Shown: positions 2,701 to 17,434 of the stretch, piece after piece
Layout of the letters: the number at the start of each line of letters is the position of its first letter
Position numbering within the stretch: the stretch's first letter is position 1
Position numbers and translations under genes: made by a program
Notes under the pieces: model-generated
Databases searched by the model: none
Seen by the model: the letters and a program-made list of their open reading frames with translations, nothing else
Told to the model about the DNA's origin: nothing
From: a virus
DNA length: 17,566 nucleotides
IMG/VR virus record: IMGVR_UViG_3300045988_103705
Direction: 5' to 3' (one strand)

Positions 2701-3655
2701 AGAATTTATATTCTCCCTTTGCAGGAGCGGAAGTAGAAGTACCGCTAAGTGCGTTACCCTTTGTAGCCTGATACTCGTCTTGACGCTTTTTAATTTCTGC
2801 AAGAGTAACTTCGCGAGCCGCCATCTTTTCATTAAGTTCAGAAACAAGAAGAGTTTCTTCGCTATCCCATGCATAAGTTTCAGGCTGTGCCCAGTTAATC
2901 ACAAAATCTCGCTGAGAGTTACGAACCTCTTTTACCTTTGTATCACCAAAAGCACTTTCTTCTTCAATTTTGCGGATTACTGTCTTAGAAATTTGAACAC
3001 CTTGTACTCTAGTAAATACTGGAGAACTAGAAGTTGCTCCAAGATTCTCAAAATAATCAAGAGCCTTTTCTGGTGCATAAGGAGTATATACATTAAATTC
3101 AACAGGAAGCAGAGATCCACGGAAATCAAAAATGCACCCTTTTACAGTTACCTTTTCAGGTAAATCGCGCTCTTCATCAGCTTCTGTACGAATTACATTA
3201 GTAATAACCATATCAGTATCAAATGTTGCACGATTCTTTTCTTCCGCGAGCTCCTGAGTCACATGGACAAACCCACCCTCATTTCTTTTTACACTTACAA
3301 GAGGGTGACCAGTAGTATTATTATCATACCACTCATTTAGACCAATAGCAGAATCAATACGGAGCTTTCCTGCGTTTTCTTTACCATGCTCCATTACAGA
3401 GCCAATCTTTCCCTCAATAATATTCAAAAGAACTCCATAGGTAGAATTTGCTTTTCCGTTTTTAGTAGTCTCAGTTACATAACTAAAATGAACATCAACT
3501 ACATTGAGCATTTCATCATCGGTTGCAATTCTCAAAATACCGTTAATAAACTCTGTTCCAGGATTTTTAGAATTTTCTCCAGAAACTTTCTTTTCGAGCT
3601 TATGCTCATAGACATACCCTTCAATATGAGTAGCATTAATCATTTTCTTTTTCAT
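2699..3655 (-). CDS. Hypothetical protein, possible ssDNA-binding or recombination-associated protein. The C-terminus ends in an aromatic residue (..KGEYKF) and the gene sits next to the Sak4-like ATPase.
   Basis: Intact 318-aa ORF with RBS GAGGAGAG. Function is inferred from genomic context only; no diagnostic motif recognised. Confidence 0.35.
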   Translation of the reverse strand: MKKKMINATHIEGYVYEHKLEKKVSGENSKNPGTEFINGILRIATDDEMLNVVDVHFSYVTETTKNGKANSTYGVLLNIIEGKIGSVMEHGKENAGKLRIDSAIGLNEWYDNNTTGHPLVSVKRNEGGFVHVTQELAEEKNRATFDTDMVITNVIRTEADEERDLPEKVTVKGCIFDFRGSLLPVEFNVYTPYAPEKALDYFENLGATSSSPVFTRVQGVQISKTVIRKIEEESAFGDTKVKEVRNSQRDFVINWAQPETYAWDSEETLLVSELNEKMAAREVTLAEIKKRQDEYQATKGNALSGTSTSAPAKGEYKF

Positions 3656-4059: not shown

Positions 4060-4088
4060 ATAATAACATATAAAATAAAGATTGTCAA
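4060..4088 (-). promoter_or_regulatory. Promoter TTGACA-N17-TATTAT driving the wHTH regulator gene. The -35 overlaps the thyX stop codon.
   Basis: Minus strand reads TTGACA ATCTTTATTTTATATGT TATTAT, followed by AAAGAGGAAAA and the ATG. Confidence 0.55.
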
Positions 4089-4711
4089 TCAAGAGCAATA
4101 TCATCAAAGATTACAGGGATTTTTTCCTTGACTTTATTAAGTGCAATAATTGCTACTTCTCTTATTTGCGGATGGGCGGCTGAAGAGCAGCGAAGCTTGA
4201 AGAAATGCCGCCACTCCCGCAAATTCGCAGTCATAACTACCTCTGTTTTTAAACTATTAGGTAGAACTGCTCTTGCTTCCTAAGGAGTGCATCCGGCAGA
4301 GAGCATATTAAAATATTCTTCTTCCGCATTTTGACAAGCATTATACCAATGATTGTAGGCTGGACTGCTCTTGATTAAGAAACAAGGTTCAATAACAGTA
4401 ATTTCATTTCCGAACCCGTCTTTTGAATAATTGCAATATCTTGTAGATTCTTGACAATAGGCAGCCAATCTATGACGAACAATTTCATGGCTAACACCTC
4501 TATCGCAAATAAATTTAAGAGTAAAAGAGCAATGCTCGAGGACTGCTTCATGTCCTCTTTTAATAATATTCTAAACAAATTTTACAGCACTATCTTCTGT
4601 AATCTTATCTTCAGATTTATAACAAACTCTACCGCACTGTTCAATTCGTTTAAGAATTATCTTACCGTCAATAGGTGTAATCAGTTCAACATCTGGCTTA
4701 ATAATTTTCAT
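4085..4711 (-). CDS. thyX: Flavin-dependent thymidylate synthase ThyX with two in-frame TAG codons (4571-4573 and 4280-4282). Stop is TGA.
   Basis: One frame gives MKIIKPDVELITP...KFV[TAG]NIIKRGHEAVLEHCSFTLKF...HEIVRHRLAAYCQESTRY (the RHR-x7-S-x-R ThyX motif) ...SAGCTP[TAG]EARAVLPNSLKTEVVMTANLREWRHFFKLRCSSAAHPQIREVA. The ORF-track pieces 4375..4578 and 4280..4468 are fragments of this gene. RBS AGGAATAAT upstream. Confidence 0.85.
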
Positions 4712-4712
4712 A

Positions 4713-4988
4713 TTATTCCTCACTTAAATTATATCCAATAAGTTCCATACAAGGATTTATTAATCGCAATAATATCTCTACTTCATCAATTACGAATTTT
4801 TCCTTCAAATCTCTATTTTTTAGAAATTCAGAATAACTAATACAATTTAGTCCAATAATTCCATATTGTTCTGCTTTAATTCTCATTGAGCGTGGATTGC
4901 TACATACAAAAATAGCATCATTATCTTTAGCATATTGCATTAGTTGATAGGTTTTTCCAGTACATCTGTTACCAATAATTCTAAACAT
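4713..4988 (-). CDS. Small (91 aa) P-loop NTPase-like protein with a minimal Walker A (GNRCTGKT) and Walker B (FVIDE).
   Basis: Intact ORF. RBS GGAGGG 6 nt upstream. Start codon overlaps the GIY-YIG gene stop (TAATG). Confidence 0.45.
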   Translation of the reverse strand: MFRIIGNRCTGKTYQLMQYAKDNDAIFVCSNPRSMRIKAEQYGIIGLNCISYSEFLKNRDLKEKFVIDEVEILLRLINPCMELIGYNLSEE

Positions 4989-5892
4989 TAAGACCCTCCG
5001 CGAGTGGTATTTAAACCAAAATCTTTCGTTTTATAAAACTCAATCCAATAAGTTTCTCTCTCATTTAAATTTTCCCTTGAAACTTCTTCTAAAATCTCAA
5101 AGGTAAAACTCCAGATTTCTACATGGTAGAATATAGTTTATTGGTTGCTTTTCCGTAAGTTAAAGCAGATTTAATATGTTGTCTAAAACGTTCTTTTATA
5201 TCAACTGACTATCCTATATAGGATTTCCCAGTGGTCAAATCAGTTATCCTATAAATTCCACAATATTTAATTGCTTTTGGGAATAACCGAGCTGTTAATA
5301 TATCATAAGCTGGTTTATAATACACTTCCCATATTAACTTATCTATGCTTTCTTTTTTGACAAATCTAGGTTGCAACTCACGCAATAATGTAATATCATT
5401 TATATCAATTTCATCAAGAGCTAAACGATAGTAATCTTGATTAGAGTCAATCTCTTCCTATCTTTGTTGAGCCTAAATATAAGCAAGTTGTTTAGCTTGT
5501 AAATCCGCTAATTTACTGGATTCGATAGAAATTTTATTTGATAAATCTTGACTTTTAGCATTAAAAGTCATAGTAAGCTCATTTTCTTTTTCTTCATAGG
5601 ATTTTAAAAGCGCGGAAATGCGAATCTAGTATGCCTCATCAGCTTGCTTTTGTGCATTTTCCCGCATTTCTTCCTAAGATTTTACTAGAGAAGAAAGAAT
5701 TTCATTTTCAGAGTATATATTTTCTTTTATATTAGATAATACTTCTCTATTATGTTTTATTTCCTATTCTATCTCTGAGTTTTTCCTCTAATTATTTATA
5801 TTAACTTCAATTATTTGATGCTCTTGTTTCTTGAGATAATAGATATAAATTATTAACCCGATTATAGTAATTAATAATAACCCTATAATCAT
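4988..5892 (-). CDS. Membrane-anchored coiled-coil protein with a C-terminal GIY-YIG nuclease domain. Eight in-frame TAG codons plus an apparent 1-nt deletion near 5105-5108, so it may be a frameshifted pseudogene or carry a sequencing error.
   Basis: ATG at 5890-5892. Protein is MIIGLLLITIIGLIIYIYYL (TM helix), then an EKQ-rich coiled coil containing TAGs, then CGIYRITDLTTGKSYIG[TAG]SVDIKERFRQHIK...NKLYSTM[TAG]KSGV, and after a frame change FTFEILEEVSRENLNERETYWIEFYKTKDFGLNTTRGGS. The span is 905 nt, not a multiple of 3. Confidence 0.55.
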
Positions 5893-5902
5893 ATTTAAAA
5901 AA

Positions 5903-5929
5903 TTCGGGGAGAGTTAACCTCTCCCCGAA
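5903..5929 (-). terminator. Strong intrinsic terminator (11-bp GC-rich stem ttcggggagag / ctctccccgaa, loop ttaac) downstream of the 5935..6210 gene.
   Basis: Perfect inverted repeat followed on the minus strand by a TTTTTT run. Confidence 0.7.
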
Positions 5930-5934
5930 TAAAA

Positions 5935-6238: not shown

Positions 6239-6442
6239 TTAATTTGTTGCTAAATCTTGAACCATAGTGTCAATTTCTAGCATAATATTTATCCCGTCGC
6301 TTAATGACATAATTTGATTGGTAATCTGCATAATTCGATTATCAGCTCGGGATTTTTCTTCCTTTGAGGAAGTTTCATTTTGGTGAATTTGCTCACATTT
6401 ATAAAGTTCTTGAGCGAGCTTTTTCATCTATTTTCGGGTCAT
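6239..6442 (-). CDS. Small hypothetical protein (67 aa) whose N-terminus is extended through an in-frame TAG at 6428-6430.
   Basis: A consensus promoter and RBS AAGGA are correctly spaced for the ATG at 6440-6442. The ORF-track ATG at 6427 has no SD and lies just after the TAG. Confidence 0.4.
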
Positions 6443-6540: not shown

Positions 6541-7647
6541 TTATGAGAAAATTTCATCTATAATACAATCTTTTGCGTCTTTATCTTCTCTCCACAACTT
6601 TAATACTGGGTGTCTTAATGTATGTTCTTTTTTATCAATAGACATGCAATCAAGAGAAACAACTTTATTAAGATAGTTCTGCGGATTTTCAGTCATATCG
6701 CGCTTCATGTCATCAGTTAGACCAGAACTAACCGTACCTAATTCTATTAGTTCGCCTTGATTATCATAAGCGCCAACTTTAATTGCTGTATTCCATCCAT
6801 AGAAATAGTATCTACTAATAGGGATTGTTCTATAATTGGGAGATCTAATTGCTTTATAGGAATTTATTTTTTCTTGTTCTACCCATACTCCATTCTCGCC
6901 TTGTTTTTCAATAGCCCAATACTCCCATGTATCTATCTCTTTTCCTGTATATTCTTTTGTTGGAGGACAAAAACCTATGCAGATTAAATCAATAGAATCC
7001 ATCTGTTTAATTTTAATTGTAGACCAAGCGGGACGTTTTCCAGGAGTATAAGGATAATCCCTTTTCTTTAAAACCGCGCCTTCGCCGCCACTTTTCAAGA
7101 TTCGAGAGATTTCTTCTTCAAGATTAGTGTCTACTTTTACTGCTAGCCGCAAGAAATTATATTGTGATAAATTATGTTTTTCCCATACTGCCGCGAGGAT
7201 TTTATATCTATCTTCTGCACCGACATTTACTAAATTGATATTATCATATTCAATTATGTCATGTATATAATAATGAATAGGATTATCTTTTTGCCTTTTG
7301 ATAGCTAAATCTGGTAGGCATCCCATTATGCTTGTTACTGTTTTAGATGTTCCTCCAGGATAATAAATCTCGCCAATTAAAATTGTATTTGATGGCATAC
7401 AATTTAAGGCTTCAATAATATGAGGTACATTTGCACCTTTTTCAGAGAGTAATCCAGTTGTTGTACTTGTATTACGAGAAAATAGATAACTGTAGTTATC
7501 TGTCTTTTCAAACTCATACCAATATCCATCAATTTTTTCTTCGAGAAAATAATCTCCAGATTGGCACATTTCAGAAAGCATAGATTCTTTACCAGCAGGT
7601 AATTTCCACACCTTCATAGCATCTATCATTTTAGCTTCAGGATACAT
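6541..7647 (-). CDS. ATP-dependent DNA ligase.
   Basis: 368 aa. Motif I EEKIDG (KxDG). EGAVLKK...PGKRPAWSTIKIK matches the EGhhhK and K-x-K ligase motifs. Confidence 0.7.
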   Translation of the reverse strand: MYPEAKMIDAMKVWKLPAGKESMLSEMCQSGDYFLEEKIDGYWYEFEKTDNYSYLFSRNTSTTTGLLSEKGANVPHIIEALNCMPSNTILIGEIYYPGGTSKTVTSIMGCLPDLAIKRQKDNPIHYYIHDIIEYDNINLVNVGAEDRYKILAAVWEKHNLSQYNFLRLAVKVDTNLEEEISRILKSGGEGAVLKKRDYPYTPGKRPAWSTIKIKQMDSIDLICIGFCPPTKEYTGKEIDTWEYWAIEKQGENGVWVEQEKINSYKAIRSPNYRTIPISRYYFYGWNTAIKVGAYDNQGELIELGTVSSGLTDDMKRDMTENPQNYLNKVVSLDCMSIDKKEHTLRHPVLKLWREDKDAKDCIIDEIFS

Positions 7648-7904: not shown

Positions 7905-7937
7905 AAAGATAAGAGTGGTTTTACCACTTTTATCTTT
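7905..7937 (-). terminator. Hairpin terminator (about 15-bp stem with one mismatch) overlapping the stop codon of the GyrA-like gene.
   Basis: aaagataagagtggt / accacttttatcttt followed on the minus strand by AGTTGATTTTTCTTTTTT. Confidence 0.55.
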
Positions 7938-10302
7938 AAATCTTGGCTACTGAAATAATCTTATCATTATTTTTTATCATTATATTTCCCATAGAAATTC
8001 TTGATAGCTTGGGAAAATCTTTTACACTAACGACAATAGAACTCTTATTACCAGAAATTAAAATATCATTATCATCAGACACCAATTCTGCTCCGACAAC
8101 TGTTCCTTTGTAACATGATACTCCTTTGCCACCGCGGTTTTGTTTATTAAACTCTTTTAGCTCAATTTTCTTTCCAAGACCATCTTCTGAAATAATAGCA
8201 AGATAATCTGCATTATTACTTATTGGTAATGCAGCGATAATACTATCATCATCGGATATATTCATTCCTTTTACTCCTTGCGCAGTTCTAGAAGAAATTG
8301 GCATTTCCGCAGTATCAAATCTTATAGTCATTCCATTTTTAGTAACAAGTATCATTTCCTCTTGATTTATAAAAGTTACTGCGGCGAGTTCGTCACCGTC
8401 TTTTAACTTAATTGATACAATTCCAGTTCTCTTCATTGCATCATATTCTTCCAGAGGAACTTTTTTGACTATTCCTTTTTTAGTAGCAAAGAATATAAAC
8501 TTTTTATCTGTATCTCTTGTTAAAGTAGTATATGCCATAGGAACTTCATTATCTTCAAAAGTAATCAGAGTAGATAAGGATACGCCGATAGAATTGTTAT
8601 TTCCTTCTGGAATATTGTCCACGAACAGTCTATACATCTTTCCTTTTGATGAAAATATCATCAAAGTATCTTGTGTATTCGTGGCAGAAGAAAATGTTAT
8701 GATGTCATTAATTTTCATTCCAGTAGTATTTCTTTTTTGAGGTTTAAAAACCTTTTTTGCGATTCTTTTTACTGTACCTTTATTAGAAATAATAACAACA
8801 CAATCTTCTGGCTCTACAACCACTTGTTCTTTCTCTTGTTTAGGGATTTCTGTATTAATAAGTTTTGTGCGGCGAGCATCTCCATATGTATCTTTAAGTT
8901 CGGTAATAAGTTTAATTAACTTATTATTCCTTACTTCTTTATTATTTAACAACTCATTACACTTAGCTATAAACTCTATTTTTTCGTTTAGCTCGTCAAC
9001 TAACTCTTGTTTATCAATGCGAGTTAATTTGCCAAGTTTCATATCTAAAATAGCTTTAGCTTGAATATCATCTACATCTAAGAAAGCAATTAGTTCTTTC
9101 TTTGCTTCATTAGTGTTATTTGCACTTTTAATAATTTTAATAACTTCATCAATCTTATCAACAGCAGCGATCAATCCCTCAAGAATATGTTTGCGGGCCT
9201 CAGCTTTTTCCTTATCAAACTGAGTTGCTTTAATTAATACATCTTCCTGATGGCTGACATAAATCTGTAATAAATCTATCATTGAGCAAAGTCTAGGAGT
9301 TCCATTTACAATATAATTCATATTATAAGAAATAGAAGATTGTAAGTCAGTTAATACAAATAATTGATTTAATGCTTTAGATACAGAAACACCATCTTTT
9401 ACATAAAATACAAGCCTATTATTACCGATATTTGATTCATCATCAAAATCTTCAATAATCTCACTTAATGTTTCAATATTCTTCTCTATTTGCTCTTTTA
9501 TTTTATTTCGATAGGTTCTATAAGGAATACTTGTAAAGATAATTTTTTGCCCATCAATCTCATAGTCGCCTTGAATTTTCAAAGAGATTGTGGATTTTCC
9601 CGTTTTAAACGCGCTCTTTACATCCTTGATATTTAGAACAGTTCCGCCAAGAGGGAAATCTGGGCCAGGAATATAGGTTAGTAATTCATCAATAGTGAGC
9701 GAGCCTTTTTGAATTAGAGCAATTGCTGCATTACATACTTCTGTTAAATTATGTGGAGCGCTATTATGGGCCATGGAAATACCAATGGCTTGTCTTCCAT
9801 TGCAAATAGCATTTGGAAAAAGGGCTGGTAAAATCACTGGCTCCATAAATTCTCCATTATATGTTTCTTTAATTGGAACTACATTTTTCTTGTAATCATT
9901 CATCATTATATCAGCAAATAGTGAAGGTTTTGCCTCTGTATAACGAGAAGAAGAAAACATATCATTATTTTCTTGAGTTCCTAATTGTCCTTGTCCTGTA
10001 ATAAGAGGATAACGCATTAAAAATGGTTGTGCCATCTTTCGAAGAACACCATAGCAAGCAATATCGCCATGAAAGTAAGAGGTGGCTAGAGTAGAACCAA
10101 CAATAGCATTACACTTTTTGGTCTTACTCTTATTATTCATCTTCAAATAATCTTCCATAGTCCAAATGATTTTTCTTTGCGCGCTTAACAGCCCATCCTC
10201 CGCCGCAGGAATGGCTCTATCAGTTAAAACCTCTTCTGCATATGTTAAGAATGTGTTTTTTGCTTCATCAAGAATATCTACTTCTGTAATTAAACTACTC
10301 AT
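7936..10302 (-). CDS. Type II DNA topoisomerase subunit A (GyrA/ParC-like).
   Basis: 788 aa. N-terminal region conserved with GyrA (GDIACYGVLRKMAQPFLMRYPLITGQGQLG). Active-site tyrosine motif FSSSRYTEAK. Confidence 0.85.
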   Translation of the reverse strand: MSSLITEVDILDEAKNTFLTYAEEVLTDRAIPAAEDGLLSAQRKIIWTMEDYLKMNNKSKTKKCNAIVGSTLATSYFHGDIACYGVLRKMAQPFLMRYPLITGQGQLGTQENNDMFSSSRYTEAKPSLFADIMMNDYKKNVVPIKETYNGEFMEPVILPALFPNAICNGRQAIGISMAHNSAPHNLTEVCNAAIALIQKGSLTIDELLTYIPGPDFPLGGTVLNIKDVKSAFKTGKSTISLKIQGDYEIDGQKIIFTSIPYRTYRNKIKEQIEKNIETLSEIIEDFDDESNIGNNRLVFYVKDGVSVSKALNQLFVLTDLQSSISYNMNYIVNGTPRLCSMIDLLQIYVSHQEDVLIKATQFDKEKAEARKHILEGLIAAVDKIDEVIKIIKSANNTNEAKKELIAFLDVDDIQAKAILDMKLGKLTRIDKQELVDELNEKIEFIAKCNELLNNKEVRNNKLIKLITELKDTYGDARRTKLINTEIPKQEKEQVVVEPEDCVVIISNKGTVKRIAKKVFKPQKRNTTGMKINDIITFSSATNTQDTLMIFSSKGKMYRLFVDNIPEGNNNSIGVSLSTLITFEDNEVPMAYTTLTRDTDKKFIFFATKKGIVKKVPLEEYDAMKRTGIVSIKLKDGDELAAVTFINQEEMILVTKNGMTIRFDTAEMPISSRTAQGVKGMNISDDDSIIAALPISNNADYLAIISEDGLGKKIELKEFNKQNRGGKGVSCYKGTVVGAELVSDDNDILISGNKSSIVVSVKDFPKLSRISMGNIMIKNNDKIISVAKI

Positions 10303-10314
10303 TTATACACTTCC

Positions 10315-12204
10315 TCATTCAAAATTAAATCCTAATTCTTCTGCATTATCATAGATATATTGCTTGCGGGGTTCAACTGCGCTTCCCATCAAAATTTCGA
10401 GCAATTCTGTGGTAGCTTTGGCATCACTGATAGTAATGCGTTTATATCTTTCATTCATAAAACATACTTTTTGCAGATCCTCTGGATTTAATTCTCCCAA
10501 TCCCTTAGCTCTAAGTAAATCATAACTGCCGCTATGATTCTTTTTCCACTCTTCAAGTTCATTGTCACTATAACAGTAATACTCTTTTCCTTTTTGTCGA
10601 ATAATATATAATGGAGTTACAGCTCTATATAACTTACCAGCTTCAATAAGAGGACGCATATATGTATAGAAGAAAGTAATAAGCATTAATTCAATATCTG
10701 CACCATCACTATCTGCATCGGCCGTGATTACAACTTTATCAACGGTCAATTTACTAATATCAAAATCTTTACCAAAGCCTCCACCAAGGATCCTAATAAT
10801 ATCAGACATTTCTTGGTTAGAAAGCAGCTTATCAATAGCAGTCTTTAATGGGCTGATAATTTTTCCTCGCAACATATAAATGCAATCCGTTTTAGGATTT
10901 CGCGCTTCTACTGCGGAAGCTCCTGCGGATAGTCCCTCAACAAGCAAGAGATTACGATCTTTAGGGATACGATTTCCGCAATCAATAAACTTATTACTAA
11001 GTTTCATTTTTGCCTTTAATCCGGTTTCTTTCTTTGTCTTTATTCCTCTTGCTGCCTCTCTTGCTTTACGAGCTGCCTCTCTTGCTTTTCTAGCATTTAA
11101 TGCTTTATCCGCGATACTTTTAATTTCTTTTTCATTTGTTGTGAACCAATATTGCAGCTCTTCTGCTATTGCTTGCGTAAAAGGTTTCATATCTAGTTTT
11201 GTGACACGAGATTTTACTTGAGCATCATATCCAATATTTGGTGCTGTAATATTAAAAACAAGATACATTCCTTCTTGGCAATCATCTCCAGAGAGATTTT
11301 CATCCTTATCTTTTAGCCACCCTTTTTCTCGGAAGAATTTATTAAATTCTCTTGTTAAAAGGGTTTTAATTTGCGTAATATGCGGACCAGCTTCTGTTAA
11401 ACCAGTATTTACATATGGGACAATCGTAGAAGAGTAGTTATTTGTATAAGTTAGAGCTAAATCCAACTTATTTTTACCTTCGGAAAAATTAATTGAGAAA
11501 CGATTTTTCAGAATCTCTTTTCCCTTAACGCCTTCATCTAACAAATCCATAAGACCATTCTTAGAGAAGAACTCTGTCTTTTTTCCATTATCATCTAGTT
11601 TGATAGTTAGCCCCGGACAGAGACATACAATAGTTTTAAATAAGGAGCTTAATGCTTTTGTGTCTGGCTTTGGATCAGTAAAAAACTCTTCACTTGCAAT
11701 CCAGAAAACAGAAGTTCCATGAACATTTTTATCAACCTTACAAGAATCTCTAGATTCAAAAATGCCCTCTTTGAATCTTACTTGTTCTCCTTCTCCATCT
11801 CTATATGTCCACACAGTTAATTCGTGACTAAGATAAGTTGCAAGTTTGCTACCAATACCAAAACTACCAAGAGAAGTTCCCTCATAAGTTCCATCTTCTC
11901 TATATTTACCACTGGTATTTAATACACTAAATGCGGCTTCTAGAATTGTTTTCCCATCTTCTCTAAAAGAATTAGGAATAAATCCTTGACCATGATCGCT
12001 GACAGACACTCTGGTACCATTAATTTGTACGTCTATTTCATTACCGTGACCCAATCTAAATTCATCTACCGAGTTTGATACAATCTCTACTACTAATTGA
12101 GTAGAAGTTGATGTATCTCCGCAATATACCCCAGGTCTTAAACGAGTAAATTCTAGAGGACTTAATGACTCAATACTTTTTTCATTATATAACTTATCTG
12201 ACAT
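10315..12204 (-). CDS. Type II DNA topoisomerase subunit B (GyrB/ParE-like). Stop is TGA.
   Basis: 629 aa. GHKL ATPase N-terminus (LRPGVYCGDT...VVEIVSNSVDE). Toprim LLVEGLSAGAS and MLRGKI. Contains a short tandem KAREAAR KAREAAR repeat. Confidence 0.85.
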   Translation of the reverse strand: MSDKLYNEKSIESLSPLEFTRLRPGVYCGDTSTSTQLVVEIVSNSVDEFRLGHGNEIDVQINGTRVSVSDHGQGFIPNSFREDGKTILEAAFSVLNTSGKYREDGTYEGTSLGSFGIGSKLATYLSHELTVWTYRDGEGEQVRFKEGIFESRDSCKVDKNVHGTSVFWIASEEFFTDPKPDTKALSSLFKTIVCLCPGLTIKLDDNGKKTEFFSKNGLMDLLDEGVKGKEILKNRFSINFSEGKNKLDLALTYTNNYSSTIVPYVNTGLTEAGPHITQIKTLLTREFNKFFREKGWLKDKDENLSGDDCQEGMYLVFNITAPNIGYDAQVKSRVTKLDMKPFTQAIAEELQYWFTTNEKEIKSIADKALNARKAREAARKAREAARGIKTKKETGLKAKMKLSNKFIDCGNRIPKDRNLLLVEGLSAGASAVEARNPKTDCIYMLRGKIISPLKTAIDKLLSNQEMSDIIRILGGGFGKDFDISKLTVDKVVITADADSDGADIELMLITFFYTYMRPLIEAGKLYRAVTPLYIIRQKGKEYYCYSDNELEEWKKNHSGSYDLLRAKGLGELNPEDLQKVCFMNERYKRITISDAKATTELLEILMGSAVEPRKQYIYDNAEELGFNFE

Positions 12205-12669
12205 TTATTCACCATACTCTCTTAAAATTTCTTCTGAGGTCATTCTTCCAGTAGCCAATGCATCAGCTAGTTCATTATAAAGCTCTCCGTCATGACCTTT
12301 GATTTTTCTTAAATCAATTCTATAGTCTTTGCTTAACATATCATAGGTCTTAATTAAATCAAGATTTTCTAGCTTTTTACCTCCAGCTCTTGTCCAACTA
12401 TTAGCTTTCCATCCTTTAATCCATGAAGTAAAACTATTTACACAATAAGCGGAATCGCTATAAACAATAGGGGCAAAGAAATCTCCATCTTTAGCTCCAT
12501 AGTTTTCAAGAGCATAAATTATAGCAGACATTTCCATCCTATTATTAGTAGTTTTAGGTTCACGCTCTGCATAAGCAGCTATAACAATACCATTATCATC
12601 AACTACTATAACCCCAAAACCTCCTGGGCCGGGATTTCCTAAGCAAGAACCATCAGTATATATAGTCAT
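12205..12669 (-). CDS. rnhA: Ribonuclease HI.
   Basis: 154 aa. Begins MTIYTDGSCLGNPGPGGFGVIV. Confidence 0.85.
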   Translation of the reverse strand: MTIYTDGSCLGNPGPGGFGVIVVDDNGIVIAAYAEREPKTTNNRMEMSAIIYALENYGAKDGDFFAPIVYSDSAYCVNSFTSWIKGWKANSWTRAGGKKLENLDLIKTYDMLSKDYRIDLRKIKGHDGELYNELADALATGRMTSEEILREYGE

Positions 12670-12744: not shown

Positions 12745-12757
12745 ACTACAAACAAAT

Positions 12758-12793
12758 AAAGGCTTAATGAGTATTTAACTCATTAAGCCTTTA
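12758..12793 (-). terminator. Intrinsic terminator (15-bp perfect stem aaaggcttaatgagt / actcattaagccttt) ending the lysis cassette.
   Basis: Perfect inverted repeat, followed on the minus strand by ATTTGTTTGTAGTTTGATTTTT. Confidence 0.7.
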
Positions 12794-12795
12794 TA

Positions 12796-13131
12796 TTAAA
12801 TAGGACCATCGAGATCAATGGGAATATCATTAGAGGCTGAAAAATCTTCTGCGGGGATGTTATATGCAGAATTGAATTCAGTTTCTTTTAAAGCTAGGTC
12901 ATAAGTAATGCCGCCCTTTTTGTGATCTGATTTAGCCATTGCTAAATAAAAAGAACAAACTACTCCGTGGGCGCTCCATGGTAGACCAACAAGAGCACTA
13001 ATCCATGGAAGGGTTCCTAAATATCCCATATAAACACACATAAATGCCAAAAGGATACCTGACACAGTCACGACCCATAATAACATACGAATATCATTTA
13101 TAAGTTTTTTGGAAAATTCTAATTTTTTCAT
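12796..13131 (-). CDS. Holin-like protein: two TM segments, charged C-terminus, ATGA overlap with the endolysin stop.
   Basis: 111 aa. Hydrophobic helices LLWVVTVSGILLAFMCVYMGYL and ISALVGLPWSAHGVVCSFYLAMA. Lies immediately downstream of the endolysin. Confidence 0.5.
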   Translation of the reverse strand: MKKLEFSKKLINDIRMLLWVVTVSGILLAFMCVYMGYLGTLPWISALVGLPWSAHGVVCSFYLAMAKSDHKKGGITYDLALKETEFNSAYNIPAEDFSASNDIPIDLDGPI

Positions 13132-14537
13132 TTTAAACCCAGCTTTTCAGCCAATCTTCTTAACATAGTTACAGTTTCTAATCTAGTGCAGAATTTATTT
13201 GGCATCATTCTTCCAGCACTGTCTCCAGCCATAATCCCATTTGCTTTAGCCCATTCAAGATTATCGGTGCCCCAAGTTTCTTTTTCATTAGCTTTATTAG
13301 TAAGCCAAGTATTCATAAGTTCAGCGAATTTCTCGTCAGTCATATCTTCATCATCCTCCTAGATATTTGACATTAAATTATAAACATCTGTTCTTGCGGT
13401 TTCCATGCTTTTTCCAAATTTTGGAAACCAATGGTTTACATCTGCATGATTAGATCCTAACCCTAACTTGTGACTATCAGCATGACATAAAATAGTTGGA
13501 ACGGTGATACCATTTAAAGTAGTGGTTCCCAATGGATTTATGTTATACATTTTACATAAATAAGCAGTAATTTGACAAGCCTCTTCATAAATTTTGTTAA
13601 AATAATTTGCATCATTTAATCCATCTTCGCAAATTTCAAACTGAATCCATCCATTATTACAAGAACCTTTAGACCCAGAACCGCATCCCCAAGGACGATA
13701 ATTCCATGGCATCGTCTATACTGTTGTTACCGTTCCATCAGCTAATTTACCAATCCAACAGTTTAATCCAGCTTGAATAGATATATGATTCCAGTCATTC
13801 TTGCTAGTATTTTTTCCTAATTTATTTATTAAACTGGTATAGTTAGGATCATTATCGCTTGGCTGTACGTATCTTTTTAAATTAGGATTATTTGCACCAG
13901 TACTATGCCATAAGATTCCTTTGACTTGCATGGTGCGTGTTTGTTTATAGCAAGTGCTATTTGTCATCATACATTGAAGTGGTTTATTGCTATCGCTATA
14001 TTTCATTTTATTACCTCCTTCAATTACATTTGAAATGTTAGCAAATTTATTATAATACTATTGACCATAATTAGCCCTCTTTTGTTGCATAGAAAAACTC
14101 TAGTCTGAAGGTCGTTCAAACTAGAGTAATACCGCGGTAGAAGCTTCTGTGACAGAAGTAGCAGAAATCAAAATTTTAACTAAACTAGAAAAACTTGTAA
14201 TTAATTCCTAATATAAAAAATCTAATTGAGTATTTAAATCTCCAATGGATTTACCTCGACTTTGACAGAACTAAAGCAAATTTTGTTTTCTGCTCCAAAA
14301 TGTCCATTGAGCCAATCCATACCCCGCTCCATCTTTTACAAAGTTTTTGTATCTTCCGTCATCAACTGCGGAAGTATATTCTGTATCGGTCATTTTTAAT
14401 TTTTTTTCATATGTGTTCTATAAGTTAATAGAATTAAGTTCACTCTCGGCATAAAGATTGCCCATTAAACCGGCAATTCCGCAATCACTAAAACCTTTGC
14501 CTTTAAAGTATTTCCAAATAACTTGGGCATTAGTCAT
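13128..14537 (-). CDS. Modular endolysin: phage-tail-lysozyme-like domain (GIAGLMGNLYAESELN...QLDFLY...FERP), Amidase_2/PGRP N-acetylmuramoyl-L-alanine amidase, and SLH cell-wall-binding domain. Contains 8 in-frame TAG codons.
   Basis: A single frame runs from ATG 14535-14537 to TGA 13128-13130. Its only interruptions are TAGs at 14418-14420, 14271-14273, 14208-14210, 14121-14123, 14100-14102, 14058-14060, 13716-13718 and 13359-13361. ORF-track fragments 13716..14006, 13359..13712 and 13128..13343 are in-frame pieces of it. Amidase motifs are ILWHSTGANNP and NNGWIQFEICED; SLH motif is WAKANGIMAGDSAGRMMPNKFCTRLETVTMLRRL. An internal SD GAAGGAGGT lies 7 nt before the ATG at 14004-14006. Confidence 0.8.
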
Positions 14538-14539
14538 TT

Positions 14540-15394
14540 TTATTTTTTTGTAATGAAAGAGCTATATCCAGCGGATTTTAATTTATCTTTTAGTCTTTCT
14601 GCATTTAATTTCACAGAGAAAGCGCCTAATTGAACTTTATAAAAAACTCCTACTTTCTTGACATATCCGCTAAATCCTTTCTCTTCCAATTCCTTTAACA
14701 TATTCTCTGCATTGGTTTTAGATAGAAATGCTCCTACTTGAACTCTGTAAAGAACTACCTCTTGTTCTTTCTTAAAATATACACACATTACATTATCAAC
14801 TGGTCTTGCATAAATTTGAGAAGTTTTTCTTTTCCCATCTATTAGTAATCTAGTAGATCCGCCTCCATCTAAATTAATAGCATATTCTACTTTCAATTCA
14901 AGAAAAATTTGCTATAGGGCAGCATAAGCAAGACCTGGAGAATCTACGGTTACAATATAATAATTATTTTTATTCCATCCAATACAAGTCCTGCGGGCTT
15001 TATGATCTAATTCTTTTCCATCTGTTATAACTATCTTTTTGCTATCTACAATTAATGCAGGATAAGCTGCAATAAAATCTCTGGCGGTTTGTAATCTTTT
15101 TAATGTTGTATATATAAGTGTTTTATTGCCGCTAATTGCAACCCCATGGCGAAAATCAGACTAAATAACAGTTCCTTCGTCTTTATAACTAAAGCAGGTA
15201 TTGCCATTGTTCATAGCAAAGAACCCTCCATTAGTAACAATATCTGGTTTAGTAGTCTGTCTTTTATAATAAACATCTGGAGTTTCCGTCGGTTGATTAC
15301 ATAAGGCAAAGTCAATTTTTTCAATGTCTACGAAGGGAATTGTTACAATTTGAACATAAGAATAGAGACTATGTTTTTTAATGCTATATCCCAT
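14540..15394 (-). CDS. NAGPA (phosphodiester glycosidase-like) domain protein with two C-terminal SPOR domains. Interrupted by in-frame TAGs at 15161-15163 and 14912-14914 and an in-frame TGA at 14897-14899.
   Basis: ORFs 15161..15394 (..NGGFF..) and 14540..14896 (AINLDGGGST..., then two SPOR repeats YRVQVGAF.. and YKVQLGAF..) share one frame. The intervening frame encodes ..IVTVDSPGLAYAAL[TAG]QIFL[TGA]LKVEYAINLDGGGS, which fits the conserved NAGPA domain core without gaps. RBS AAAGGAGATAAAGT upstream. Confidence 0.6.
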
Positions 15395-15416: not shown

Positions 15417-15444
15417 AAACCCAATCTCTTTAGAGATTGGGTTT
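15417..15444 (-). terminator. Intrinsic terminator (13-bp perfect stem aaacccaatctct / gagattgggttt) between phoH and the lysis genes. No promoter follows it.
   Basis: Perfect inverted repeat followed on the minus strand by TTTTATTATTG, then directly the RBS and ATG of the NAGPA gene. Confidence 0.65.
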
Positions 15445-15447
15445 AAA

Positions 15448-16704
15448 TCAAATATATTCAGCTATTTGCGCGATTCTAGATCTATAAATATTACGGAGTT
15501 CTACTTCACCGTATATATCTTGTCCTCTATAAACTTTAGAAACTCGTTTCATTCCATTGTTTATGCCAGCAAAATGAATATCATCAACTTGAGTTTTTTC
15601 ATCGCCGTCAATGATACAAATGCAATCCTCTCCAATTCTTTGAAGAGCCAACTTAATAAGTGTACGATCTAAATTCTGAGCTTCAGAAATGTATATACCT
15701 GCTCTTGAACCATTGGTATCATATCCTCTAATATCCGACATTGGTAGTAAAATTAATTTTTCTTCGCTCATAAGATGTTCTACTCCCGTTCTACCGCCGA
15801 ATTTAGATATTAGGAGATTGCCGATTTGAGAGTCTAATAGTTTTTCATCTCTTGTTCCAGGGAGAAATCCTAATCTTGCACTATTGGCTGTTGCAACGGT
15901 ATTGCAAAATACAATAATATGATCGAGTTCGCCTTTTTCTAGCTTAGACATTAAATAGGCTAGACTAATAAATGTCTTACCAGATCCCGCGGGCCCTTTA
16001 ATTAAAGTAATTTTATTATTAGATAAACTATCAAAAAGTAACTTTTGGTAAATATCATTTTGATATGGCTTTACTTTTCCAAACCAGTTTGAATTAAAGT
16101 CACTATAATTTAAATATCTATGGTCGTTTCCAGTCCACACTCTCAAATCTACTACTTTATCATCTATATCTCTTATAATGAGATATTCTCCAACATGAAG
16201 ATTAAAATGATTCAGCTCTGGTTTTTGATAAAACTCTGTAAGATTCTCATCACTAGCAGAAATTTCTTTATATCCACTATAATTATCAGTTTCTTCTGGA
16301 ATACTTTCTATCATGTCAGACCCGAAGAATAGATTTGCAATATGCTTTAGGCTTAAATCATTTGTTACAAAGATGACTTCATCCACTCTTTTATTATTAT
16401 TATACCAAATTGCATCAGACAGTATCCTTGTATCATCCGTTACGTCAAGACACATTTCTTTAATATAGTCTTCAAAATCTGTTTGATGGATTACTACTTC
16501 ATACATATCAGGGTGCGTTTCAAATAAATGTAGCAATAATCTAGCTGAATATTTTATATCTGAATCTTTATTGTTAGCGGTTTTAATTCTTTCCAATTCC
16601 TGAAAAGTAATTGATGATACAATAAATTTTTCATCATTATTGAATAAGCCTTCTCCGCATATCAATAGTGAACAAGTATCATAGAACCGAATATCTTTAT
16701 TCAT
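15448..16704 (-). CDS. phoH: PIN-domain plus PhoH-like ATPase (YlaK-like). Stop is TGA.
   Basis: 418 aa. N-terminal PIN-like region (RFYDTCSLL...). PhoH P-loop LIKGPAGSGKTFISLAYLM. Confidence 0.8.
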   Translation of the reverse strand: MNKDIRFYDTCSLLICGEGLFNNDEKFIVSSITFQELERIKTANNKDSDIKYSARLLLHLFETHPDMYEVVIHQTDFEDYIKEMCLDVTDDTRILSDAIWYNNNKRVDEVIFVTNDLSLKHIANLFFGSDMIESIPEETDNYSGYKEISASDENLTEFYQKPELNHFNLHVGEYLIIRDIDDKVVDLRVWTGNDHRYLNYSDFNSNWFGKVKPYQNDIYQKLLFDSLSNNKITLIKGPAGSGKTFISLAYLMSKLEKGELDHIIVFCNTVATANSARLGFLPGTRDEKLLDSQIGNLLISKFGGRTGVEHLMSEEKLILLPMSDIRGYDTNGSRAGIYISEAQNLDRTLIKLALQRIGEDCICIIDGDEKTQVDDIHFAGINNGMKRVSKVYRGQDIYGEVELRNIYRSRIAQIAEYI

Positions 16705-16972: not shown

Positions 16973-17434
16973 TTAATTATTATTGCCCTGACGAAATTTT
17001 CTAACTATCGAGAGCGCCTTAGTTTGATTTTTAATGTAAGTTTTTAAGTTAGTTTCTTCTGTTTTTAATGCTTTTTCAAGTGCGGAAATTCGAGCTGAGC
17101 AGCGTCCAATTGCATAATAAAAGTTTCCAGTGGGGTCAACTTCCGCAGGACTTAATCGCTCATATTTTGTTGCCTCTTGATAATAGTCATATCTATATTG
17201 TAATTCTTTGCGAGTTTTTTTCATTTCATATTGCATAGCATTTATTCTTGCTTTTGATAAAGCGATAGTTTTACCTACCTTTTCAGAAAAAAAATCTTTA
17301 TCGCTTTCCGCTAACTTGGCTCGTCCGCTAAAGATTTTTCCATTATAATTAATTCCAACAATACATATGCCAGATTTTTCATTAACTAGCTATGTAATTG
17401 TTGGAGCTTTATATATAGCACTAATAACACTCAT
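16973..17434 (-). CDS. Hypothetical protein (153 aa) with its N-terminus extended through an in-frame TAG at 17390-17392.
   Basis: ATG at 17432-17434 is preceded by RBS AGGAGA and a promoter. The frame runs MSVISAIYKAPTIT[TAG]LVNEKSGICIVGINYNGKIFSGRAKLAESDKDFFSEKVGKTIALSKARINAMQYEMKK... and joins the ORF-track ORF 16973..17236. Confidence 0.5.

What the first reader, a model, noticed from the sequence alone, without database searches (positions are those of the whole stretch)
7936..12669. Amber codons are absent from the longest genes (GyrA-like 788 aa, GyrB-like 629 aa, PhoH 418 aa, ligase 368 aa, AAA_24 326 aa) but dense in the lysis and nuclease genes
About 2,850 codons of these genes contain zero TAG, whereas the endolysin and GIY-YIG genes have about 1 TAG per 40-60 codons. 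This strong partitioning suggests either expression before suppressor availability (TAG-free early genes) or recent acquisition of the TAG-free genes from a standard-code source. DnaB and ThyX (2 TAGs each) are intermediate, which argues against a simple early/late split and deserves explanation.
Basis: seen in the sequence. Interest (0 to 1): 0.55.

Follow-up and report, generated by a model that had tools for sequence, protein, structure and literature searches.

The report
Amber-recoded phage: early genes TAG-free
This is part of an uncultured human-gut phage that reads the TAG stop codon as glutamine, keeps TAG out of the genes it probably needs first, and packs it into lysis and nuclease genes; this gene-timing pattern is already published for other recoded phages.

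Summary
With TAG read as sense, the window holds 21 co-directional minus-strand genes. GyrA, GyrB, PIN-PhoH, ligase and AAA_24 (2,529 codons) contain no TAG. The endolysin has 8 and the GIY-YIG gene 8, plus one artefact caused by a 7-bp deletion. No gene ends in TAG.

The skew survives normalisation by Gln codons (P = 1.6e-5 in the window; permutation p ≤ 5e-5 over 79 genes of the extended genome). It is conserved in diverged relatives: GyrB has 0 TAG among 433 Gln codons in 30 orthologues, while RuvC uses TAG for 59% of Gln-like codons, GIY-YIG 51% and RecJ 26%.

TAG aligns with CAA/CAG in relatives, so it encodes Gln. Near-identical relatives carry a tRNA(CUA) suppressor about 17 kb upstream. 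Codon usage is the same in TAG-free and TAG-rich genes, so recent import of the TAG-free genes is rejected.

Best explanation: code-15 recoding acts as a translational gate on late or dangerous genes, as proposed by Borges et al. (2021/2022). The number of TAGs per gene may give a graded delay, which would account for DnaB and ThyX. Expression timing is inferred, not shown.

Verdict: a new member of a known kind, of modest interest.

The parts
7936..10302 (-). GyrA-like topoisomerase subunit A, 788 aa, 0 in-frame TAG (24 CAA/CAG)
   Evidence: Pfam DNA_topoisoIV 1e-103 plus GyrA_C. Counts. The family has 2 TAG among 678 Gln-like codons in 27 orthologues.
10315..12204 (-). GyrB-like topoisomerase subunit B, 629 aa, 0 TAG
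   Evidence: Pfam DNA_gyraseB, Toprim and GyrB_C. The family has 0 TAG among 433 Gln codons in 30 orthologues.
12205..12669 (-). RNase H, 154 aa, 0 TAG and no Gln codon in this strain
   Evidence: Pfam RNase_H 1.7e-33. The family has 0 TAG among 108 Gln codons.
12756..12794 (-). Terminator-like hairpin (17-bp stem) directly after the holin-like gene; a promoter-like site follows at 12744-12716
   Evidence: Consensus scan. Function not shown.
12796..13131 (-). Holin-like membrane protein, 111 aa, overlapping the endolysin stop; 0 TAG but also 0 Gln codons
   Evidence: Assigned from hydrophobic segments and position only; no Pfam or PHROG match. 20 of 29 relatives carry a TAG.
13128..14537 (-). 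Endolysin (Phage_lysozyme2 + Amidase_2 + weak SLH), 469 aa, 8 in-frame TAG at 14418, 14271, 14208, 14121, 14100, 14058, 13716 and 13359 (first base of each on the + strand)
   Evidence: Pfam. TAG coordinates. Codons 40, 146 and 274 are CAA/CAG in most relatives. fTAG is 0.42 in the >=90%-identity clade.
14540..15394 (-). NAGPA (phosphodiester glycosidase) + SPOR cell-wall protein, 284 aa, 2 TAG (15161, 14912)
   Evidence: Pfam. Both TAGs are conserved in 5 of 5 close relatives.
15417..15444 (-). Terminator-like hairpin (12-bp stem) directly after the PhoH stop and just upstream of the lysis cassette
   Evidence: Function not shown.
15448..16704 (-). PIN-PhoH ATPase, 418 aa, 0 TAG
   Evidence: Pfam PhoH and PIN_4. 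Family fTAG is 0.057, with TAG in 9 of 28 relatives.
16973..17434 (-). Hypothetical protein, 153 aa, 1 TAG (17390)
   Evidence: No family match.
6541..7647 (-). ATP-dependent DNA ligase, 368 aa, 0 TAG
   Evidence: Pfam DNA_ligase_A_M. The family has 0 TAG among 146 Gln codons in 22 orthologues.
6239..6442 (-). Hypothetical protein, 67 aa, 1 TAG at codon 5 (6428)
   Evidence: Relatives have CAG (16) or TAG (5) at that codon. All 8 distinct orthologues carry a TAG.
5902..5930 (-). Strong terminator-like hairpin (12-bp stem, 7 GC pairs, T-run) 10 nt upstream of the GIY-YIG start codon
   Evidence: The same hairpin occurs in relative L012.
4981..5892 (-). TM helix + coiled coil + GIY-YIG nuclease gene. 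It has 8 genuine in-frame TAG (5788, 5764, 5674, 5626, 5473, 5458, 5209, 5119). In this strain a 7-bp deletion between 5106 and 5107 frameshifts it; the intact form in relatives is 303 aa.
   Evidence: Pfam GIY-YIG 4.4e-9 on the intact form. PHROG homing-endonuclease models match the nuclease domain only. Family fTAG is 0.51, with TAG in 20 of 20 orthologues.
4085..4723 (-). ThyX thymidylate synthase, 208-212 aa, 2 TAG (4571, 4280)
   Evidence: Pfam Thy1 1.6e-51. The second TAG aligns with the conserved Gln of solved ThyX structures and is CAA in 4 relatives.
1661..2641 (-). AAA_24 ATPase, 326 aa, 0 TAG
   Evidence: Pfam AAA_24 3.8e-38. Family fTAG is 0.019.
2699..3655 (-). YorF-like protein, 318 aa, 0 TAG
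   Evidence: PF27337 YorF in the collection's annotation. PHROG 2367.
1..1050 (-). DnaB-like helicase, N-terminal 350 codons (the gene runs off the window); 1 TAG here (745) and a second beyond the window
   Evidence: Pfam DnaB and DnaB_C. The full 512-aa gene has 2 TAG. Family fTAG is 0.042.

Best explanation
**What it is.** The window is the replication/lysis region of a phage of about 147 kb from the human gut. The phage is distantly SPbeta-like and uses genetic code 15 (TAG = glutamine). Its host is probably a standard-code Clostridia bacterium.

**How it most likely works.** The phage carries its own amber-suppressor tRNA(CUA). TAG codons are kept out of genes that must be translated by the unmodified host machinery at the start of infection:
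- topoisomerase, ligase, RNase H, AAA_24 and YorF-like genes in the window;
- the tRNA-repair and NAD-salvage genes further upstream.

TAG codons are concentrated in genes whose products are harmful if made early:
- the endolysin cassette;
- DNA nucleases (the GIY-YIG gene here; RecJ and RuvC just outside the window);
- the tail and other late genes.

Full-length product needs every TAG to be suppressed, so yield should fall roughly as (suppression efficiency)^(number of TAGs). Genes with 1-2 TAGs (DnaB, ThyX, PolIII-alpha, NrdD) would come on as soon as some suppressor is present. Genes with 8-13 TAGs would wait until it is abundant. That gives a graded timer rather than a two-state early/late switch.

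**Shown here:** recoding, TAG = Gln, the suppressor in near-identical relatives, the conserved partition, and the absence of a compositional difference.

**Inferred:** the timing, the host's code, and the graded-yield mechanism.
For: 1. **Recoding.** TAG-as-sense restores ORFs and domains. No gene ends in TAG.
2. **TAG = Gln.** ThyX TAG-148 aligns with the conserved Gln in PDB ThyX. Window TAG sites are CAA/CAG in relatives, and Gln is the majority residue in 39 of 98 TAG-containing columns.
3. **Suppressor.** A tRNA with anticodon CUA (Rfam tRNA, 61 bits) lies in a Ser-Sup-Leu-Cys array on the same strand. It sits about 7.4 kb upstream of the RNA ligase gene in L140, whose upstream region is 96-100% identical to other members of the window's clade. 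It is also present in L146 and L161.
4. **Partition beyond chance.** Window P = 1.6e-5. Over 79 genes and 19,416 codons the permutation p is <= 5e-5 after Gln normalisation. Out-of-frame TAG is equally common in both classes.
5. **Conserved across relatives.** GyrB 0/433, GyrA 2/678, ligase 0/146, RNase H 0/108 and Thg1 0/246 Gln-like codons are TAG. By contrast fTAG is 0.59 for RuvC (29/29 orthologues), 0.51 for GIY-YIG (20/20), 0.26 for RecJ (30/30), 0.22 for the holin-like gene, and 0.42 for the endolysin in the window's clade.
6. **Evolutionary rate does not explain it.** Fast-evolving families (metallophosphatase, AAA_33, NAD synthase; 50-60% identity) are still TAG-free.
7. **Gradient along the co-directional array.** The order is: tRNA array, about 25 kb TAG-free, the mixed window, PolIII/Nrd genes with 1-2 each, RuvC 9 and TM143 4, then a convergent module where nearly every gene has TAG.
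8. **Gene-specific control.** RecJ and RuvC abut or overlap TAG-poor neighbours with no terminator between them, so control would be translational and gene-specific.
9. **Same model in the literature.** Borges et al. proposed it, including preferential recoding of lysis genes and of a homing endonuclease. TAG-to-Gln was confirmed by metaproteomics in crAss-like phages (abstract, PMC9523058).
Against: - There are no expression or proteomic data for this phage, so 'early' and 'late' are assigned from gene function and position only.
- The suppressor lies on the same strand at the head of the TAG-free block. It may therefore be transcribed early, which weakens a strict late switch and is why a graded model is preferred.
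- DnaB, PolIII-alpha and NrdD, which are needed for replication, do contain TAG.
- The holin-like gene and a second lysozyme-domain gene have no TAG in this strain.
- TAG shows no significant 5' bias within genes (p = 0.15).
- The suppressor was not seen in the window or on its own contig. It is also absent at the syntenic spot in a more distant recoded clade.
- The host and its genetic code are not established; there is only a hint from Band7 homologues in Clostridia.
- Only about 75 kb of the roughly 147-kb genome was examined. Capsid, portal and terminase genes were not reached.
Confidence: 0.72

Rival explanations
1. Suppression is effectively constitutive during infection. The TAG distribution then reflects selection for translational efficiency and accuracy rather than timing. 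Genes needing high or error-free output avoid an inefficiently decoded codon, and low-demand genes tolerate it.
For: The suppressor tRNA sits with the TAG-free 'early' block on the same strand. The replication enzymes DnaB, PolIII-alpha and NrdD carry TAG. Nucleases such as GIY-YIG, RecJ and RuvC are plausibly needed in small amounts.
Against: Tail-fibre-like and other late-module genes, normally well expressed, are TAG-rich. Gene length, a proxy for the cost of premature termination, does not predict fTAG (rho = -0.17, p = 0.23). The complete absence of TAG in GyrB, ligase, RNase H and the counter-defence block across hundreds of Gln codons looks like an absolute constraint rather than a graded efficiency preference.
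Confidence: 0.15
2. The TAG-free genes were recently acquired from a standard-code source and have not yet accumulated TAG.
For: Two TAG-free genes outside the window do look foreign: Band7 (GC3 0.44, 16 CAG / 0 CAA, RSCU r = 0.33) and a TROVE-like gene (GC3 0.44, r = 0.51). Band7 is 74-79% identical to proteins encoded in gut Clostridia genomes.
Against: The five named genes have fully phage-typical codon usage: GyrA r = 0.97, GyrB 0.93, PhoH 0.90, AAA_24 0.90, ligase 0.86, and GC3 0.17-0.23, the same as TAG-rich genes. They are syntenic and TAG-free in 18-30 diverged orthologues down to 31-41% identity, with hundreds of CAG codons one transition away from TAG.
Confidence: 0.03
3. After the suppressor was acquired, TAG accumulated by neutral drift. 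The uneven distribution is chance, or reflects Gln content and evolutionary rate.
For: TAG-rich genes are Gln-rich (GIY-YIG about 8%, endolysin 4.9%, against 2.6% in the five genes). They also evolve fairly fast (58-65% median identity).
Against: Heterogeneity persists after conditioning on Gln-like codons. The same families are enriched or depleted in independent diverged lineages. Equally fast-evolving families are TAG-free.
Confidence: 0.03
4. The TAG-dense nuclease genes are mobile selfish elements (homing endonucleases). They move between recoded phages and carry their TAG load with them, independently of any timing role in this phage.
For: The GIY-YIG domain matches homing-endonuclease models. 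A 303-aa DUF2726 gene with 4 TAG is an insertion in L142 relative to L140, next to tRNA-Cys. The window's GIY-YIG copy is frameshifted. Borges et al. report a preferentially recoded intron endonuclease.
Against: The GIY-YIG gene sits at the same locus in 20 of 20 relatives. It has an N-terminal TM helix and a coiled coil instead of a homing-endonuclease DNA-binding domain. RecJ and RuvC are core recombination and packaging enzymes, not mobile elements. This rival also does not explain the endolysin.
Confidence: 0.07

Closest known systems
Stop-codon-recoded (code 15, TAG to Gln) gut phages as described by Borges et al. 2021 bioRxiv 10.1101/2021.08.26.457843 (published 2022): crAss-like, Lak, Garnet, Amethyst, Topaz, Agate and others
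   Same: - Recoding is partial: some genes are standard-code compatible and others carry in-frame TAG.
- TAG encodes Gln and the phage encodes a suppressor tRNA(CUA).
- The genome is low in GC, and TAG is not seen as a stop codon.
- Lysis genes, and in one clade a homing endonuclease, prefer the recoded codon.
- Use of the alternative code in replication genes is variable.
- A standard-code Firmicutes or Bacteroidetes host is inferred.
   Different: - This lineage is SPbeta-like in its replication module (YorF/YorH/YorL-type PolIII-alpha). Whether it belongs to one of the named clades was not tested, because no terminase gene was recovered.
- The lysis cassette is embedded among TAG-free replication genes rather than in a late structural block.
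- The strongest TAG preference is in DNA nucleases (RuvC, GIY-YIG, RecJ), not only in lysis genes.
phAss-1 / proposed 'Phassvirus' (PMC10607447): 136-kb TAG-recoded human-gut phages with three tRNA-Sup(CTA) genes
   Same: Human gut origin, genomes above 130 kb, TAG to Gln, suppressor tRNAs, and about 28% of ORFs interrupted by TAG.
   Different: No nucleotide match to any GenBank phage. The best GenBank GyrA and PolIII-alpha matches are at or below 40% identity and come from other phages. It is therefore not the same genus. A direct comparison with OQ749652 was not made.
Bacillus phage SPbeta and large Enterococcus phages (EF1/EF5, VRE9 series)
   Same: Comparable genome size (125-142 kb in those records against about 147 kb here), PolIII-alpha (yorL-type) at 38-40% identity, YorF and YorH homologues, and a Bacillota host range.
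   Different: As far as I know (my own knowledge, not tested here) these phages use the standard code. The identity is low, and the gut phage has gyrase-like, NAD-salvage and tRNA-repair modules.
SNIPE membrane-bound GIY-YIG defence nuclease (PMC13190303)
   Same: The GIY-YIG protein here has the same order of parts: an N-terminal single TM helix, an elongated middle region and a C-terminal GIY-YIG domain.
   Different: The defining DUF4041 middle domain is not detected. The protein is shorter (303 aa) and phage-encoded. Only the nuclease domain matches defence or homing-endonuclease models. This is a resemblance only.

Membership tests
Code-15 (TAG to Gln) recoded phage | In-frame TAG codons inside conserved genes; reading through them restores full-length domains | tested here: met
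   The TAGs are conserved in independent assemblies.
Code-15 (TAG to Gln) recoded phage | TAG positions align with glutamine in homologues | tested here: met
   ThyX against PDB sequences. CAA/CAG at the window's TAG columns, with Gln the majority residue in 39 of 98 TAG columns.
Code-15 (TAG to Gln) recoded phage | TAG not used as a terminator | tested here: met
   All 20 complete genes in the window end in TAA (16) or TGA (4). A hidden TAG stop followed by a short extension cannot be fully excluded.
Code-15 (TAG to Gln) recoded phage | Phage-encoded suppressor tRNA with anticodon CUA | tested here: inconclusive
   No tRNA in the window or in the 12 kb of its own contig that could be read (L006). 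A tRNA(CUA) is present in close relatives L140, L146 and L161. The far end of the window's own contig could not be read.
Code-15 (TAG to Gln) recoded phage | Host uses the standard code | not testable with these tools
   Only a hint: Band7 homologues in gut Clostridia genomes, plus SPOR and SLH wall-binding domains.
Recoding as a temporal gate (Borges model) | Standard-code-compatible gene set versus recoded lysis/late set, beyond chance and conserved | tested here: met
Recoding as a temporal gate (Borges model) | TAG-containing proteins appear later than TAG-free proteins during infection | not testable with these tools
   This needs transcriptomics or proteomics of an infected culture. The phage is uncultured.
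Named Borges clades (Agate, Sapphire and others) | Placement in the large-terminase phylogeny | not tested
   The terminase gene was not reached in about 75 kb of walking.
SPbeta-like phages | YorF, YorH and YorL (PolIII-alpha)-type replication module | tested here: met
   PF27337 YorF and PF26927 Phage_SPbeta_YorH. PolIII-alpha is 38% identical to SPbeta yorL. This is a distant, module-level similarity only.
SNIPE-like membrane nuclease | DUF4041 middle domain between the TM helix and GIY-YIG | tested here: not met
   No DUF4041 hit at E <= 10. GIY-YIG is present (4.4e-9) and the TM helix is visible in the sequence.

The most novel reading that the evidence does not exclude
In this SPbeta-like gut-phage lineage, the number of amber codons per gene acts as a graded, gene-specific translational delay (yield roughly proportional to suppression efficiency raised to the number of TAGs). 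Its main targets are self-endangering DNA nucleases (RuvC resolvase, a membrane-anchored GIY-YIG nuclease, RecJ) as much as lysis proteins. These genes sit inside otherwise TAG-poor, apparently co-transcribed operons. Recoding would then substitute for separate late promoters and act as a safety lock on nucleases.
Probability: 0.3. Interest if true: 0.55.

Novelty: new member of a known kind. Interest (0 to 1): 0.3.

Why it matters
The finding adds an independent lineage to the evidence that phages use stop-codon recoding to hold back dangerous genes. This lineage is a large SPbeta-like phage, probably infecting gut Clostridia.

It also offers a clean natural test set. TAG-free and TAG-dense genes lie side by side in the same apparent operons, with TAG counts from 0 to 13. 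That makes the dose-response idea directly testable with reporters and the phage's own tRNA(CUA).

Practically, it shows again that such contigs are mis-annotated under code 11: the endolysin, GIY-YIG, RecJ and RuvC genes would all be fragmented.

Tried and rejected
- **Megablast of the whole window against GenBank phages:** no match. tblastn with GyrA and PolIII-alpha found only relatives at or below 40% identity. No annotated complete relative was therefore available, and the whole-genome count had to be replaced by walking. About 75 kb was covered. Terminase, portal and capsid genes were not reached.
- **tRNA scans:** nothing in the window or within +/-10 kb of the endolysin in 60 relatives. 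The suppressor turned up only further upstream.
- **Rfam scan around the suppressor** for the theta/HDV-like ribozymes reported next to phage suppressor tRNAs: only the four tRNAs were found.
- **'TAG-dense genes sit behind terminators':** true for the lysis cassette and GIY-YIG but not for RecJ or RuvC, so rejected as a general rule.
- **TAG clustered near the 5' ends of genes:** a weak trend only (mean relative position 0.46 vs 0.50, p = 0.15).
- **Longer genes avoid TAG:** rejected (rho = -0.17, p = 0.23). RecJ (583 aa) has 13 TAG and a 598-aa tail-fibre-like gene has 8.
- **Recent import of the TAG-free genes:** rejected on codon usage.
- **GIY-YIG protein as a SNIPE homologue:** no DUF4041 was detected.


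Full report
**1. What is in the window**

All long ORFs lie on the minus strand. GC content is 28-37%, and no tRNA is present.

Calling ORFs with TAG as a sense codon raises minus-strand coding from 3,962 to 5,163 codons. Making TGA sense adds nothing on the coding strand. TAA read-through mostly inflates the non-coding strand, as expected for AT-rich DNA.

The resulting 21 genes are, in order of transcription:
- a 153-aa hypothetical protein and a 76-aa hypothetical protein
- PIN-PhoH
- a NAGPA-SPOR wall protein
- an endolysin (Phage_lysozyme2 + Amidase_2)
- a holin-like membrane protein
- RNase H
- GyrB-like and GyrA-like topoisomerase subunits
- a 68-aa membrane protein
- ATP-dependent DNA ligase
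- two small proteins
- a GIY-YIG nuclease
- a 91-aa protein
- ThyX
- a winged-helix protein
- a YorF-like protein
- AAA_24
- a YorH-like protein
- the first 350 codons of DnaB

**2. Check of the observation**

- GyrA, GyrB, PhoH, ligase and AAA_24 total 2,529 codons with zero TAG.
- The endolysin has 8 TAG.
- The GIY-YIG ORF has 9.
- NAGPA-SPOR and ThyX have 2 each.
- DnaB has 1 inside the window.
- Two small genes have 1 each.
- All 20 complete genes end in TAA or TGA.

Given 24 TAGs in 5,556 codons, zero in the five genes has P = 5e-7 by length and 1.6e-5 by Gln-like codon content. Out-of-frame TAG trinucleotides are equally frequent in the TAG-free and TAG-dense genes (14.5 vs 12.1 per kb). 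The absence is therefore specific to the reading frame.

One correction is needed. The window's GIY-YIG gene carries a 7-bp deletion (between 5106 and 5107) that all six relatives lack. The conserved C-terminal 'FTFEILEEV...ERETYWI' continues in another frame, so the ninth 'TAG' is an artefact and the gene is disrupted in this strain.

**3. Where the window comes from**

The PhoH and AAA_24 proteins occur on many human-gut metagenome contigs. The window is 100% identical to the end of a 120,963-bp contig (L006). It is 98.7-99.97% identical to contigs of 146-149 kb.

No GenBank phage matches at the nucleotide level. The nearest PolIII-alpha genes are in SPbeta and large Enterococcus phages, at 38-40% identity. 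YorF and YorH domains are present.

Band7, a gene with foreign-looking codon usage just upstream of the window, is 74-79% identical to proteins encoded in gut Clostridia genomes. This hints at a Bacillota host that uses the standard code.

**4. TAG means glutamine, and a suppressor exists**

- ThyX TAG-148 aligns with the conserved Gln in solved ThyX structures.
- In 80 IMG/VR loci encoding endolysin relatives (51-97% identity), the window's TAG columns are mostly CAA/CAG:
  - endolysin codons 40, 146 and 274;
  - GIY-YIG codons 35, 43, 145, 228 and 258;
  - hyp67 codon 5.
- Gln is the majority residue in 39 of 98 columns that contain any TAG.
- Walking upstream found a tRNA array, Ser(UGA)-Sup(CUA)-Leu(CAA)-Cys(GCA), on the same strand as the genes.
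  - It lies about 7.4 kb upstream of the RNA ligase gene in L140.
  - L140's upstream region is 96-100% identical to other members of the window's clade.
  - That places the array about 17 kb upstream of the window's right end.
  - Rfam scores the suppressor as a tRNA at 61 bits.
- The suppressor sequence shows U1-U72, G2-C71, a G73 discriminator and an encoded CCA. The first three resemble bacterial tRNA-Gln identity features; that comparison rests on my own knowledge, not on a test.
- The suppressor is also present in L146 and L161. It is missing from the syntenic spot in a more distant but still recoded clade.

**5. The partition beyond the window**

A composite of 79 genes and 19,416 codons from near-identical contigs has 115 TAG among 711 Gln-like codons (fTAG 0.16). 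Heterogeneity among genes is significant (permutation p <= 5e-5).

Along the co-directional array the pattern is graded:
1. The tRNA array comes first.
2. About 25 kb follows with almost no TAG. It holds a TROVE-like gene, metallophosphatases, RNA ligase, Thg1, AAA_33 kinase, NAPRTase, NAD synthase and Band7.
3. The mixed window comes next.
4. PIF1, PolIII-alpha, NrdD and NrdG carry 1-2 TAG each.
5. RuvC has 9 TAG in 159 codons, and a 143-aa membrane protein has 4.
6. A convergent module follows in which nearly every gene has TAG. A tail-fibre-like protein has 8, a resolvase 6, and two small Gln-rich proteins 9 and 5.

RecJ (DHH + DHHA1 + RecJ_OB) has 13 TAG. The lysozyme-domain gene right after it, which has a signal-peptide-like N-terminus, has none.

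**6. Conservation**

Counts are over distinct orthologues across all fetched loci.

| Gene family | TAG use | Orthologues |
|---|---|---|
| GyrB | 0 of 433 Gln-like codons | 30 |
| GyrA | 2 of 678 | 27 |
| ligase | 0 of 146 | 22 |
| RNase H | 0 of 108 | 30 |
| Thg1 | 0 of 246 | 18 |
| TROVE-like | 0 of 170 | 16 |
| RuvC | fTAG 0.59 | TAG in 29 of 29 |
| GIY-YIG | fTAG 0.51 | TAG in 20 of 20 |
| TM143 | fTAG 0.36 | TAG in 25 of 25 |
| RecJ | fTAG 0.26 | TAG in 30 of 30 |
| hyp67 | fTAG 0.26 | TAG in 8 of 8 |
| holin-like | fTAG 0.22 | TAG in 20 of 29 |

The intermediate families are DnaB (0.042), NrdD (0.055), PhoH (0.057), PolIII-alpha (0.013) and AAA_24 (0.019).

Endolysin fTAG is 0.11 in the 60-90% identity clade and 0.42 in the window's own clade. 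TAG load in the lysin has therefore risen recently.

Families that evolve as fast as the lysin are TAG-free (metallophosphatase, AAA_33 and NAD synthase at 50-60% identity). Evolutionary rate alone does not explain the pattern.

**7. Tests of the alternatives**

- *Recent import.* Codon usage is the same in TAG-free and TAG-containing genes (RSCU r = 0.95).
  - GyrA (r = 0.97), GyrB (0.93) and PolIII-alpha (0.98) are the most typical genes.
  - Band7 (0.33) and the TROVE-like gene (0.51) show what recent import looks like.
- *Gene length.* Length does not predict fTAG (rho = -0.17, p = 0.23).
- *Position within genes.* TAGs are not significantly shifted toward 5' ends (p = 0.15). In every gene with at least 4 TAGs the first one falls within the first 5-64 codons.
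- *Terminators.*
  - Terminator-like hairpins on the coding strand bracket the lysis cassette (15444-15417 and 12794-12756).
  - Another sits 10 nt before the GIY-YIG start (5930-5902).
  - RecJ and RuvC have no such hairpin and abut or overlap TAG-poor neighbours.
  - The common denominator is therefore the codon, not a transcription boundary.

**8. Mechanism**

The best-supported reading is the published one. Translation of TAG-containing genes depends on the phage's suppressor. TAG-free genes work in the naive host, and TAG-rich genes are held back.

In this phage the TAG-free set makes functional sense as an immediate-early set: tRNA repair, NAD salvage, topoisomerase, ligase and RNase H. 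That assignment is inferred from known roles of such genes, not shown.

The suppressor lies with the TAG-free block on the same strand, and replication enzymes carry 1-2 TAGs. I therefore favour a graded version. Full-length yield falls multiplicatively with the number of TAGs. Genes with 1-2 TAGs follow quickly, and those with 8-13 need abundant suppressor.

It remains an inference. No expression data exist, the host is unknown, and about half the genome was not examined.

**9. Comparison with what is known, and novelty**

- Borges et al. describe partial recoding, TAG to Gln, suppressor tRNAs, preferential recoding of lysis genes and of an intron homing endonuclease, and variable recoding of replication genes.
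- Peters et al. confirmed code 15 by metaproteomics in crAss-like phages (abstract).
- phAss-1 is another TAG-recoded gut phage above 130 kb, but it is not closely related.

This window is therefore a new member of a known kind. Two modest additions emerge:
- the lysis cassette is embedded in the replication region;
- DNA nucleases (RuvC, GIY-YIG, RecJ) are the most TAG-biased families.

**10. Verdict**

The phenomenon is already described in the literature, so interest is about 0.3.

Noticed in passing
window 5106/5107 (GIY-YIG gene, 4981-5892, minus strand): A 7-bp deletion ('TTCATAA' on the coding strand) relative to all six relatives frameshifts the GIY-YIG gene in this strain. The conserved C-terminus continues in another frame. 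This is either a pseudogene or an assembly error.
   Followed up: yes
window 4981-5892, minus strand; intact 303-aa form in L012 6743-7654: The GIY-YIG protein has an N-terminal TM helix, a long coiled coil and a C-terminal GIY-YIG domain. This is the same layout as the SNIPE defence nuclease that cuts injected phage DNA (PMC13190303), and the nuclease domain matches the C-terminus of UzuA. No DUF4041 was detected. It may be a superinfection-exclusion nuclease rather than a homing endonuclease.
   Followed up: partly
window 14408 and 12946 (compared with L002 and L004): In two 99.9%-identical strains the endolysin has an extra A in a poly-A run (A8 to A9), which is a frameshift. In L002 the holin-like gene also has TAT to TAA. 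Either the lysis genes are disrupted in some strains or these are homopolymer and assembly errors.
   Followed up: partly
window 15417-15444, 12756-12794 and 5902-5930 (minus strand): Strong terminator-like hairpins bracket the NAGPA-endolysin-holin cassette, and another lies 10 nt upstream of the GIY-YIG start. There is almost no room for a promoter between hairpin and start codon, so these genes may depend on terminator read-through.
   Followed up: partly
L002 1-9100 and L140 3900-10000 (upstream of the window): A 20-25-kb TAG-free block encodes a TROVE/Ro-like protein, RNA ligase, Thg1-like protein, AAA_33 kinase, two metallophosphatases, nicotinamidase-like isochorismatase, a PRTase, NAPRTase and NAD synthase. 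It looks like a tRNA-repair plus NAD-reconstitution counter-defence module.
   Followed up: no
L002 8193-9089 (Band7) and L140 3922-5442 (TROVE-like): These two genes have foreign codon usage (GC3 0.44, almost only CAG for Gln, RSCU r = 0.33 and 0.51 against the genome). Band7 is 74-79% identical to proteins encoded in gut Clostridia genomes. Both are probably recent acquisitions from the host lineage.
   Followed up: partly
L166 1452-5481 (minus strand in that locus): The locus holds a reverse transcriptase (RVT_1), a small 164-aa protein, and a 598-aa Big_3 tail-fibre-like protein with a C-terminal DUF6273 region rich in N and Y. This looks like a diversity-generating retroelement targeting a receptor-binding protein.
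   Followed up: no
L142 139-1050 versus L140 about 3680-3950: A 303-aa Cys-rich protein with a DUF2726 (nuclease-fold) C-terminus and 4 TAG is inserted next to tRNA-Cys in one strain and absent in another. Its ORF ends TAG-TAA. It is probably a mobile endonuclease gene.
   Followed up: partly
L147, L149-L155 and L160 (positions about 280-1250): In a more distant but still TAG-recoded clade, the syntenic tRNA array is Ser-Leu-Cys with no CUA suppressor between Ser and Leu. Their suppressor must lie elsewhere or have an unusual structure.
   Followed up: no
L012 16516-17283 (merged region 30587-31354): A second Phage_lysozyme2-domain protein has a lipoprotein-like signal sequence and no TAG in the close strains. 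It sits directly after the 13-TAG RecJ gene. It may be a secreted wall hydrolase with a role other than final lysis.
   Followed up: no
L166 7121-7792: A serine recombinase (Resolvase domain, 6 TAG) lies in the TAG-rich module. It could be an invertase or could point to a temperate lifestyle.
   Followed up: no
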